From Escherichia coli (GTDB taxonomy: Bacteria; Pseudomonadota; Gammaproteobacteria; Enterobacterales; Enterobacteriaceae): a stretch of 64,000 bases of DNA. The DNA lies in the NCBI RefSeq assembly GCF_003334815.1, contig NZ_QOWO01000014.1. One strand, 5' to 3'. Numbering within the stretch: position 1 is the first letter of the stretch; each line of letters starts with the position of its first letter. Position numbers: made by a program. Positions 33,673 to 36,600 of this stretch are shown here, piece after piece.

Positions 33673-36600
33673 TCAGTAAAAGCGAATGGAGGGAGATTAC
33701 ACGAGATAAAGAACGCGAGCGACAGTAAATTAGGTGCGAAAAAAAACCTGCGCATCCGCGCAGGTTGGTGCAAGAGACAGGGTACGAAGAGCGTACCGAA
33801 TAATCTCACCAATCAATACCTCTGGGATCTTGATTGTGGTCTGCACGACGACTCTTCGCCAGCGAGAAAACGCAAAGGAATGAAGGGAAATGCAACGAGG
33901 TGTGTAAATTGTCGGTTACTGTTACAGATTGATGACCGGCAAAAAAAACCTGCGCATCTGCGCAGGCTGGTGTAATTCATGTGCTCAACCCGAAGTTGAC
34001 TTCACCTATCAATACCTCTGGGATCACCACTTTAGCAACCTGAAGCCAAACGCCACCAGCGGTCAATCGCAACAGCGTTTCGCAAAGTGTAACCAAAGGT
34101 TTGCAATCTCTTTTTTTGTCTTACTTATTTGCGTTTGGCTCACATTCCCACGATGAAAACACGCCACCCCTTGAACCAACGGGCGTTTTCCGTAACACTG
34201 AAAGAATGTAAGCGTTTACCCACTAAGGTATTTTCATGGCGACCATAAAGGATGTAGCCCGACTGGCAGGCGTTTCAGTCGCCACCGTTTCCCGCGTCAT
34301 TAATAATTCACCCAAAGCCAGCGAAGCTTCCCGGCTGGCTGTGCATAGTGCAATGGAGTCTCTTAGCTATCACCCGAACGCCAACGCCCGTGCGCTGGCG
34401 CAGCAGACCACTGAAACGGTCGGTCTGGTCGTTGGTGATGTTTCCGATCCGTTTTTCGGTGCAATGGTGAAAGCGGTCGAACAGGTGGCTTATCACACCG
34501 GTAATTTTTTATTGATTGGCAACGGTTACCACAACGAACAAAAAGAGCGTCAGGCCATTGAGCAACTGATCCGCCATCGCTGTGCTGCGTTGGTCGTCCA
34601 TGCCAAAATGATCCCGGATGCTGATTTAGCCTCATTAATGAAACAAATGCCCGGTATGGTGCTGATCAACCGTATCCTGCCTGGCTTTGAAAACCGTTGT
34701 ATTGCTCTGGACGATCGTTACGGTGCCTGGCTGGCAACGCGTCATTTAATTCAGCAAGGTCATACCCGCATTGGTTATCTGTGCTCTAACCACTCTATTT
34801 CTGACGCCGAAGATCGTCTGCAAGGGTATTACGATGCCCTTGCTGAAAGTGGTATTGCGGCCAATGACCGGCTGGTGACATTTGGCGAACCAGACGAAAG
34901 CGGCGGCGAACAGGCAATGACCGAGCTTTTGGGACGAGGAAGAAATTTCACTGCGGTAGCCTGTTATAACGATTCAATGGCGGCGGGTGCGATGGGCGTT
35001 CTCAATGATAATGGTATTGATGTACCGGGTGAGATTTCGTTAATTGGCTTTGATGATGTGCTGGTGTCACGCTATGTGCGTCCGCGCCTGACCACCGTGC
35101 GTTACCCAATCGTGACGATGGCGACCCAGGCTGCCGAACTGGCTTTGGCGCTGGCGGATAATCGCCCTCTCCCGGAAATCACTAATGTCTTTAGTCCGAC
35201 GCTGGTACGTCGTCATTCAGTGTCAACTCCGTCGCTGGAGGCAAGTCATCATGCAACCAGCGACTAACCGCAGTTAAAGCAATTCCAGCGCCAGTAATTC
35301 TTCGATGGTCTGGCGACGGCGAATCAACCGCGCCTGACCATTATCAAACAGAACTTCTGGTAACAGCGGACGGCTATTGTAGTTGGATGACATTGATGCG
35401 CCATATGCCCCTGTATCATGCAGTACCAGATAATCACCTGCCTTCACTTCCGGCAAGGCGCGGGTTTCAACATTTCCCCCTTCCTGCTGGGTAAAGACAT
35501 CGCCCGATTCACATAACGGTCCGGCGACGACGGTTTCCACCGTTGGCGCGTGTTCCAGAGAACGACCATCAGCTGCCAGGGCACTGATATGGTGGTAACT
35601 ACCGTACATTGCCGGGCGCATCAGATCGTTGAACCCGGCATCAACCAGCACAAAGTGGCGGCTCCCCATTTGTTTGACGCTCCGCACCTGAGTAATTAAT
35701 ACGCCAGACTGCGCTACCAGGAAGCGACCCGGTTCAATTTCCAGTTTCACAGGGTGGCCCAAATGGCGGGCGATTTGCTCACGCGCGGCATTCCACAGAC
35801 CATAATAATGTTCGGTATCAACCGCCTCTTCACCCTGTTGATAAGGAACAGAAAGCCCACCGCCCGCAGAAATAGCCTGTAAATCCTGACCGAATTCGAT
35901 GACCTGACGCACCATAGCACCACACACCTGTTCCAGATGGGCATAATCAACGCCAGAACCAATGTGCATGTGAATGCCGACCAGCTGCAGATGATGACGT
36001 TGTATCACGTCCAGTGCGGCGGGCAGATCGGTGTACCAGATACCGTGCTTGCTGTTTTCGCCACCGGTATTGGTTTTTTGGCTATGTCCGTGACCAAACC
36101 CCGGATTAACGCGCAGCCATACCCGATGCCCTGGCGAAACCTGGCCCAGTTGGTCGAGCATATCAACAGAACCCGCATTCACCGGAATTTGCAATTCACT
36201 GACGCGTTCAAGCGTCGCCTGATCGATAACATCTGCCGTAAAAACAATATCATCGGGGTGCGTTTGCGGATTGTAACCCGCCGCCAACGCACGCTCTATT
36301 TCGCCTAACGAGACGGAATCCACTTTCACGCCCTGCTCACGCATTAAGCGCAAAATATGAATATTGGAACAGGCTTTCTGTGCAAAGCGCACCACATCAA
36401 ACTGTTTCAGCGCTGCAATCTGCCGACGAATAATTTGCGCATCGTAGACCCACACCGGGCAGCCAAATTCAGCGGGCAAACGCAGCAGATTTTCGGCGGT
36501 GAGATCGGTATCGGTGCTGAACAGTGAATGTGGCATAACAAACTCCAGATAAGTGCTTTTTTATGATTACGCCACATCATAAAAAGAATAAAAAATATCG

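What the first reader, a model, noticed from the sequence alone, without database searches (positions are those of the whole stretch)
33729..34022. Tandem paralogous sRNAs OmrA and OmrB between aas and galR
Two minus-strand RNAs of 88 and 82 nt share the 5' end CCCAGAGGTATTGAT and the 3' terminator CCTGCGC(G/A)GATGCGCAGG plus T8 but differ in the middle. This is the known OmrA/OmrB arrangement. It also explains the ORF-track ORFs here as non-coding.
Basis: partly seen in the sequence, partly recalled or inferred. Interest (0 to 1): 0.2.

Follow-up and report, generated by a model that had tools for sequence, protein, structure and literature searches.

The report
Known E. coli sRNAs OmrA and OmrB

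Summary
The observation and the interpretation both hold. Two full-length matches to Rfam RF00079 (OmrA-B) lie on the minus strand: 33739-33826 (88 nt, 96.6 bits, next to aas) and 33941-34022 (82 nt, 86.1 bits, next to galR). The gathering score is 40. Around the locus the window is base-for-base E. coli K-12. These coordinates map exactly onto the annotated ncRNAs omrA (b4444) and omrB (b4445) of NC_000913.3. The only error is that the stated start, 33729, lies 10 nt beyond the real 3' end of OmrA (33739).

The two RNAs share 20 of their first 21 nt, including CCCAGAGGTATTGAT. They also share a 35-nt 3' end with an intrinsic terminator and T8, and they differ in the middle. In 48 Enterobacterales loci the galR-omrB-omrA-aas order recurs, the terminator helix covaries, and a central hairpin is kept with changing sequence.

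The published promoter features are present at the expected bases. The omrA -10 is CACAAT, with the -12C that confers sigma-S dependence. The omrB -10 is TAAAGT. The RstA/OmpR box bases T-75 and A-68 are also in place.

Mechanism, from the literature: these are Hfq-dependent, OmpR-activated RNAs whose 5' ends pair with target mRNAs, including ompR itself. Already known; interest is very low.

The parts
33739..33826 (-). omrA gene: the 88-nt small RNA OmrA (transcription start 33826, 3' end 33739)
   Evidence: Rfam RF00079, 96.6 bits, model positions 1-87 of 87. Equals NC_000913.3 ncRNA omrA b4444 at offset 2942363.
33941..34022 (-). omrB gene: the 82-nt small RNA OmrB (transcription start 34022, 3' end 33941)
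   Evidence: Rfam RF00079, 86.1 bits, model positions 1-87 of 87. Equals NC_000913.3 ncRNA omrB b4445.
33806..33826 (-). OmrA 5' end (nt 1-21), the single-stranded target-pairing region shared with OmrB
   Evidence: 24-nt direct repeat at 96% identity. Unpaired in the Rfam consensus and in the MFE fold. Positions 17-20 are invariant in 64 homologs; invariance of nt 1-15 was imposed by the search pattern. Its role in pairing was shown by mutation and compensatory mutation in PMC2588501.
34002..34022 (-). OmrB 5' end (nt 1-21), the target-pairing region
   Evidence: Same as for OmrA. It differs from OmrA only at nt 16 (A instead of T).
33739..33766 (-). OmrA intrinsic terminator: hairpin AACCTGCGC-GGAT-GCGCAGGTT with a T8 tract
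   Evidence: Terminator scan. The helix is 99.8% paired across 64 homologs, and 3 of its pairs change on both sides.
33941..33968 (-). OmrB intrinsic terminator: hairpin AGCCTGCGC-AGAT-GCGCAGGTT with a T8 tract
   Evidence: Terminator scan; covariation.
33781..33797 (-). OmrA central hairpin GGTACG-CTCTT-CGTACC, in the OmrA-specific middle part
   Evidence: Rfam consensus structure and MFE fold. Also picked up by the hairpin scan. A central hairpin of at least 5 bp is predicted in all 64 homologs, with different sequences.
33985..33999 (-). OmrB central hairpin TCAACT-TCG-GGTTGA, in the OmrB-specific middle part
   Evidence: Rfam alignment and MFE fold.
33833..33838 (-). omrA -10 element CACAAT, with C at -12 and C at -13
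   Evidence: Read directly from the sequence. The -13..-7 stretch is conserved in 15 species. The -12C is the reported determinant of sigma-S dependence (review PMC12692685).
34029..34034 (-). omrB -10 element TAAAGT, with T at -12
   Evidence: Read directly from the sequence. The review reports -12T and independence from sigma-S.
34082..34097 (-). omrB upstream box TTTGGTTACACTTTGC (-75..-60), a candidate OmpR/RstA site (box B2 of the literature)
   Evidence: Conserved run at -70..-60 in 15 species. T at -75 (34097) and A at -68 (34090) are the bases whose mutation abolished RstAB activation and strongly reduced OmpR activation (PMC13425233; bases checked).
34064..34076 (-). omrB upstream box GCTGTTGCGATTG (-54..-42), probably box B1 of the literature; its binding factor is unknown
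   Evidence: Conserved run in 15 species. PMC13425233 reports a highly conserved B1 box that is needed together with B2. Equating this block with B1 is my inference.
33920..33926 (-). omrA upstream box TGTAACA (-100..-94), an OmpR-type motif
   Evidence: Invariant in 15 species. It fits 7 of the 8 positions of the OmpR ChIP motif TGTWACAW (PMC3586657). It is not enriched in the window as a whole.
31492..33651 (-). aas, the flanking gene downstream of omrA on the same strand
   Evidence: 719-aa ORF; annotation.
34236..35267 (+). galR, the flanking gene, divergent from omrB
   Evidence: 343-aa ORF; annotation.

Best explanation
The locus holds the two paralogous, separately transcribed small regulatory RNA genes omrB (next to galR) and omrA (next to aas) of E. 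coli. Each has its own activator-dependent promoter and its own intrinsic terminator.

According to the literature, EnvZ-OmpR activates both genes. omrA additionally depends on sigma-S through a -12C in its -10 element. omrB uses sigma-70 and can be activated by multicopy RstAB. The RNAs bind Hfq. Their shared, unstructured 5' end pairs with short complementary stretches near the translation start of many mRNAs (ompT, cirA, fecA, fepA, ompR, dgcM, flgM, btuB), or further upstream in the leader in the case of csgD. This blocks translation and/or triggers RNase E decay. Because ompR is itself a target, the pair forms a negative feedback loop on its own activator. The divergent middle parts give each RNA some targets of its own.

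Shown here: the identity of the genes, their structure and covariation, their synteny, the promoter bases, and the complementarity to the ompR leader. Taken from the literature and not tested here: OmpR, sigma-S and RstA control, Hfq dependence, and target repression.
For: - **Family match:** both copies match RF00079 full length, at 96.6 and 86.1 bits against a gathering score of 40.
- **Identity:** the sequence is 100% identical to MG1655, and the coordinates coincide with annotated omrA and omrB. The region is present in 5424 of 5426 complete E. coli genomes.
- **Terminators and folding:** both terminators were found. Both RNAs fold better than shuffled sequences (z = -2.7 and -2.9).
- **Relatives:** 71 homologs were found in 48 Enterobacterales loci, with galR and aas flanking them.
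- **Structure conservation:** the terminator helix is 99.8% paired, and three pairs show compensatory double changes (UA->CG in 6 sequences, GC->AU in 17, CG->UA in 5). The partner-slide controls give 18-53% paired. A central hairpin is kept in 64 of 64 homologs despite sequence turnover.
- **Promoter bases:** CACAAT (-12C) for omrA, TAAAGT (-12T) for omrB, and T-75 and A-68 in omrB match the published functional positions. The promoter blocks are conserved across 15 species and differ between the two genes.
- **Target pairing:** the 5' end CCCAGAGGU can form 9 contiguous pairs with ACCUUUGGG just upstream of the ompR start codon. The duplex energy is -16.9 kcal/mol for OmrA and -19.0 for OmrB; 48 and 9 of 1000 shuffled seeds do as well. 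This pairing was proven in vivo by compensatory mutations in PMC2588501.
Against: Nothing substantive.

- The generic sigma-70 consensus scan found neither promoter. This is expected for promoters with a poor -35 that need an activator.
- The OmpR-type motif is not enriched in the window, so OmpR binding rests on the literature and on conservation.
- The single-sequence MFE fold of OmrB pairs nt 7-9 and 12-15 of the seed, unlike the Rfam consensus. Only 21 of 64 homologs leave nt 1-15 free in the MFE fold.
- The invariance of nt 1-15 among the homologs was imposed by my search pattern.
Confidence: 0.98

Rival explanations
1. The region encodes one or more small proteins, for example the 55-aa ATG ORF at 33813-33980(-), the 38-aa ORF at 33730-33846(-) or the 75-aa ORF at 33929-34156(+), and the repeats are coding repeats.
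For: ORFs of 20-78 aa overlap the region on both strands.
Against: No CDS is annotated here in MG1655. The conserved parts are the RNA ends and the helices, which show compensatory changes. The middle parts vary by insertions and deletions. The ATG of the 55-aa ORF lies inside OmrB (ACATGAAT), and that position reads ACTAGAAT or ACAAGAT in several Citrobacter copies. The ORFs run through the terminators and promoters.
Confidence: 0.01
2. The downstream unit is not an independent gene but a transcribed leader or attenuator of aas, whose start codon lies 87 nt beyond the terminator. The upstream unit would be a duplicated copy of that leader.
For: Same strand as aas, and close to it (33739 versus 33651).
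Against: The unit ends in a strong terminator with 9 pairs and T8. It is annotated and has been characterised as a discrete 88-nt RNA. It has its own conserved promoter. In some relatives extra DNA separates the RNA from aas: about 2.8 kb in L027 and about 2 kb in L086.
Confidence: 0.01

Closest known systems
OmrA / OmrB (formerly RygA / RygB; Rfam RF00079) of E. coli K-12
   Same: Everything. The sequence, lengths (88 and 82 nt), strand, order, flanking genes and promoter bases are all identical.
   Different: Nothing at the locus itself. Elsewhere the window's strain differs from MG1655; for example, it has one initiator tRNA gene instead of three at metZWV.
Single or chimeric Omr RNAs of other Enterobacterales (described in PMC13425233)
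   Same: The same 5' seed, terminator and aas-galR context.
   Different: Those species have one gene only, often the omrB promoter fused to an OmrA-like body (L027, L028, L037, L114). The window has the full two-gene arrangement.
Other tandem sibling sRNAs, such as PrrF1/PrrF2 of Pseudomonas aeruginosa (from my own knowledge)
   Same: Adjacent duplicated Hfq-dependent sRNAs with overlapping targets and separate promoters.
   Different: Unrelated in sequence, regulator (Fur rather than OmpR) and regulon. They are analogous, not homologous.
MicF and MicC, other OmpR-controlled envelope sRNAs (from my own knowledge; MicF is mentioned in PMC13425233)
   Same: sRNAs under EnvZ-OmpR control that repress outer-membrane protein mRNAs by pairing near the translation start.
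   Different: Different families and different loci. Neither is duplicated in tandem.

Membership tests
OmrA-B sRNA family (Rfam RF00079) | Covariance-model score above the curated gathering threshold, over the full model | tested here: met
   96.6 and 86.1 bits against 40. Both matches cover model positions 1-87 of 87 and are not truncated.
OmrA-B sRNA family (Rfam RF00079) | Conserved 5' end CCCAGAGGUAUUGAU, left unpaired in the consensus structure | tested here: met
   Exact in both copies. Unpaired in the Rfam consensus and in the OmrA MFE fold. Partly paired in the OmrB MFE fold.
OmrA-B sRNA family (Rfam RF00079) | 3' intrinsic terminator hairpin followed by a U tract | tested here: met
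   Both found by the scan. The helix covaries across 64 homologs.
OmrA-B sRNA family (Rfam RF00079) | [quoted passage not shown] | tested here: met
   ORFs and annotation. The same synteny is seen in relatives.
E. coli omrA / omrB genes specifically | Sequence identity and coincident coordinates with the annotated genes b4444 and b4445 | tested here: met
   A 4501-nt stretch of NC_000913.3 is found exactly in the window. The offset, 2942363, places omrA at 33739-33826 and omrB at 33941-34022.
E. coli omrA / omrB genes specifically | Published promoter determinants: omrA -12C (sigma-S), omrB -12T, and omrB box with T-75 and A-68 | tested here: met
   Bases read. Their significance comes from PMC12692685 and PMC13425233.
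E. coli omrA / omrB genes specifically | Transcription activated by EnvZ-OmpR, with direct OmpR binding | not testable with these tools
   Only sequence motifs and their conservation could be checked. Activation is reported in the literature.
Hfq-dependent trans-acting sRNAs | Hfq binding and repression of targets by base pairing | not testable with these tools
   The complementarity to the ompR leader was reproduced in silico. The in vivo proof is in PMC2588501.

The most novel reading that the evidence does not exclude
Nothing at the locus in this window is new. The only mildly novel reading comes from the relatives I fetched, which suggest the paralog pair was reduced to one gene by more than one route. 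Pseudescherichia vulneris (L099) has a single gene that combines omrB-type upstream boxes with an omrA-type -10 (CACAAT) and an OmrA-like body. Siccibacter colletis (L080) keeps only an omrA gene, with a complete omrA-type promoter and no trace of omrB. The second case would be an exception to the published generalisation that the omrB promoter is always retained (PMC13425233).
Probability: 0.4. Interest if true: 0.12.

Novelty: already known. Interest (0 to 1): 0.04.

Why it matters
It matters only as a calibration point. OmrA and OmrB are biologically important: they remodel the envelope, control iron uptake, motility and biofilm formation, and feed back on EnvZ-OmpR. All of this is published, and the sequence here is the reference K-12 sequence.

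Tried and rejected
- **Generic promoter scan:** the sigma-70 scan found neither promoter. I used the published start sites and conservation instead.
- **OmpR motif count:** TGTWACA occurs 7 times in the window against 7.66 expected. Its presence alone is therefore no evidence; only its invariance across species counts.
- **15-mer genome scan:** None of those had a full-length nhmmer match. Only the Enterobacterales loci were used, and the survey is not exhaustive.
- **PGAP annotation:** a PGAP-annotated K-12 record shows no feature between aas and galR. This is an annotation-pipeline gap, not evidence of absence, because NC_000913.3 lists both ncRNAs.
- **Central hairpin covariation:** the MAFFT alignment does not align the variable middle by structure, so I did not count covariation there. 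I checked the hairpin one sequence at a time instead.
- **Single-sequence folding:** MFE folding does not reliably leave the seed unpaired (21 of 64), so it was not used as evidence for seed accessibility.
- **Rivals:** the small-protein and aas-leader readings were considered and rejected (see the rival explanations).

Full report
**1. Observation**

Read on the minus strand, the interval holds two units.

| Unit | Coordinates (minus strand) | Length | Position |
|---|---|---|---|
| Upstream | 34022 to 33941 | 82 nt | next to galR |
| Downstream | 33826 to 33739 | 88 nt | next to aas |

- Both begin with CCCAGAGGTATTGAT, and both end with CCTGCGC(G/A)GATGCGCAGG plus T8. Each of these two strings occurs at exactly these two places in the 64-kb window and nowhere else.
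- The repeat finder reports the shared 3' block (35 nt, 91% identity) and the shared 5' block (24 nt, 96%), at spacings of 202 and 196 nt.
- The terminator scan finds both hairpins, each with 9 pairs (6 G-C), a loop of 4 and a T tail.
- The middles differ. A global alignment gives 66 identities in 92 columns.
- The stated start of the finding (33729) overshoots the real 3' end (33739) by 10 nt.

**2. Identity**

- A gathering-threshold Rfam scan of the whole window gives two full-length RF00079 (OmrA-B) matches. One is at 33739-33826 (96.6 bits, E = 6e-18) and the other at 33941-34022 (86.1 bits, E = 2e-15). The gathering score is 40.
- A 701-nt query across the region matches 5424 of 5426 complete E. 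coli genomes, many of them at 100% identity, including K-12 MG1655.
- A 4501-nt stretch of NC_000913.3 occurs exactly in the window, at offset 2942363. In that record the ncRNA omrA (b4444, 2976102-2976189) and the ncRNA omrB (b4445, 2976304-2976385) lie between aas and galR. These map to 33739-33826 and 33941-34022, the same coordinates as the Rfam hits.
- So the 88-nt copy next to aas is OmrA, and the 82-nt copy next to galR is OmrB.
- A PGAP-annotated K-12 record shows no feature there. That is a limit of the annotation pipeline.

**3. Structure and comparative support**

- Both RNAs fold better than dinucleotide shuffles (z = -2.68 and -2.91).
- To bring in relatives I scanned one genome per species for the 15-mer. 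I then searched the fetched loci with an nhmmer profile built from the two window RNAs. This gave 71 full-length homologs in 48 loci, all of them Enterobacterales. The many matches in other phyla were chance hits with nothing around them.
- tblastn with the window's Aas and GalR proteins shows the conserved order galR - (omrB) - omrA - aas.
- In a 64-sequence alignment the terminator helix is 99.8% paired. Three of its pairs change on both sides: UA->CG in 6 sequences, GC->AU in 17 and CG->UA in 5. Sliding the 3' partner by 1-3 columns lowers pairing to 18-53% and gives almost no double changes.
- The GGUG/CACC helix never varies, so it says nothing for or against the structure.
- The variable middle forms a hairpin of at least 5 bp in all 64 sequences, with different sequences in each.
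- Caveat: invariance of nt 1-15 was imposed by the search pattern. Positions 17-20 are invariant without that bias.

**4. Promoters**

Taking the first C as +1, the bases are as follows.

| Gene | -10 element | Window coordinates | Base at -12 |
|---|---|---|---|
| omrA | CACAAT | 33833-33838 | C (also C at -13) |
| omrB | TAAAGT | 34029-34034 | T |

- The review PMC12692685 reports that the -12C makes omrA almost fully sigma-S dependent, while omrB with -12T is not.
- PMC13425233 reports that mutating T-75 and A-68 of the omrB promoter abolishes activation by multicopy RstAB. The same change cuts activation by plasmid-borne OmpR from 81-fold to 3.3-fold. The window has T at -75 (34097) and A at -68 (34090).
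- Aligning the -115..+5 region of 15 two-copy species reproduces gene-specific conserved blocks:
  - In omrB: TTACACTTTGC (-70..-60) and GCTGTTGCGATTG (-54..-42).
  - In omrA: TGTAACA (-100..-94), a block around -44..-40, and the -10 element.
- TGTAACA fits 7 of the 8 positions of the ChIP-derived OmpR motif TGTWACAW (PMC3586657). That motif occurs in the window no more often than chance (7 found, 7.66 expected), so only its conservation carries weight.
- The generic sigma-70 scan misses both promoters. This is expected for activator-dependent promoters with a weak -35.

**5. Mechanism**

The following comes from the literature and was not tested here.

- EnvZ-OmpR activates both genes.
- The RNAs act with Hfq and RNase E.
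- Their conserved 5' end pairs with ompT and cirA near the translation start. A 5'-end mutation abolishes control of all targets tested.
- ompR itself is a target, shown by compensatory mutations. This gives an autoregulatory loop (PMC2588501).

Later work adds csgD, flhDC, dgcM, flgM, btuB and other targets, as well as differences between the two RNAs.

In silico I reproduced the ompR pairing. CCCAGAGGU can form 9 contiguous pairs with ACCUUUGGG just upstream of the ompR AUG. The duplex energy is -16.9 kcal/mol for OmrA and -19.0 for OmrB; 48 and 9 of 1000 shuffled seeds do as well.

**6. ORFs**

- The mechanical ORFs over the interval are 78 aa or shorter, on both strands. None is annotated in MG1655.
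- They run through promoters and terminators.
- The ATG of the 55-aa ORF lies inside OmrB and is not conserved in several Citrobacter copies.

**7. Verdict**

This is already known: the reference E. coli K-12 omrA-omrB locus. Interest is very low.

**8. Side observations**

These are listed separately in the report.

- The window's strain has one initiator tRNA gene where MG1655 has metZ-metW-metV.
- Erwiniaceae have about 2 kb, including a penicillin-binding-protein-like gene, between the two Omr copies.
- Single-copy species show at least three different promoter and body combinations. One is an omrA-only locus in Siccibacter colletis, which does not fit the published statement that the omrB promoter is always kept.

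Noticed in passing
window 5244-5320 (+): There is only one initiator tRNA-fMet gene here, where MG1655 has three tandem copies (metZ, metW, metV). The window lacks 220 bp, which equals two 110-bp repeat units. The surrounding 10 kb is 99.96-99.98% identical to MG1655, so the source is a K-12-like strain or assembly, not MG1655 itself. This could be a real recombinational loss or a collapsed repeat in the assembly.
   Followed up: partly
window 554-759 (+): A full-length GcvB small RNA (Rfam RF00022, 199 bits), next to gcvA as in K-12.
   Followed up: partly
window 3775-3817 (-): A hit to Rfam RF02751 (ES036 / CssrF sRNA), 46.5 bits against a gathering score of 37.6. It lies in the tcdA-mltA intergenic region. 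NC_000913.3 annotates no feature in that intergenic region.
   Followed up: no
L030 2747-4879 (Pantoea stewartii); also L059, L076+L077 and L102 (Erwinia endophytica): In Erwiniaceae the two Omr copies are about 2.03-2.09 kb apart instead of about 0.2 kb. In L030 a 579-aa ORF lies between them (2936-4675, +). By eye it resembles a penicillin-binding protein or FtsI-type transpeptidase. An 843-aa ORF (130-2661, start as called mechanically) fills the stretch between galR and the first copy and resembles a molybdopterin oxidoreductase. Neither ORF was searched against any family library.
   Followed up: partly
L080 3957-4446 (Siccibacter colletis) and L099 421-758 (Pseudescherichia vulneris): Both are single-copy loci that differ from the published chimera type. 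L080 has only an OmrA-like gene with a complete omrA-type promoter (TGTAACA at -100, CACAAT at -10), and no omrB remnant in the whole galR-aas spacer. L099 has omrB-type upstream boxes (at -69 and -52) joined to an omrA-type -10 (CACAAT) and an OmrA-like body. [quoted passage not shown] Each case rests on a single genome.
   Followed up: partly
L027 (Enterobacter sp. BIGb0383), L033 (Serratia bockelmannii), L086 (Pantoea sp. IMH): Extra DNA has been inserted into the otherwise compact galR-omr-aas interval. L027 has about 2.8 kb between the sRNA and aas, L033 about 7.7 kb between galR and the sRNA, and L086 about 2 kb between the sRNA and aas. The contents were not examined.
   Followed up: no
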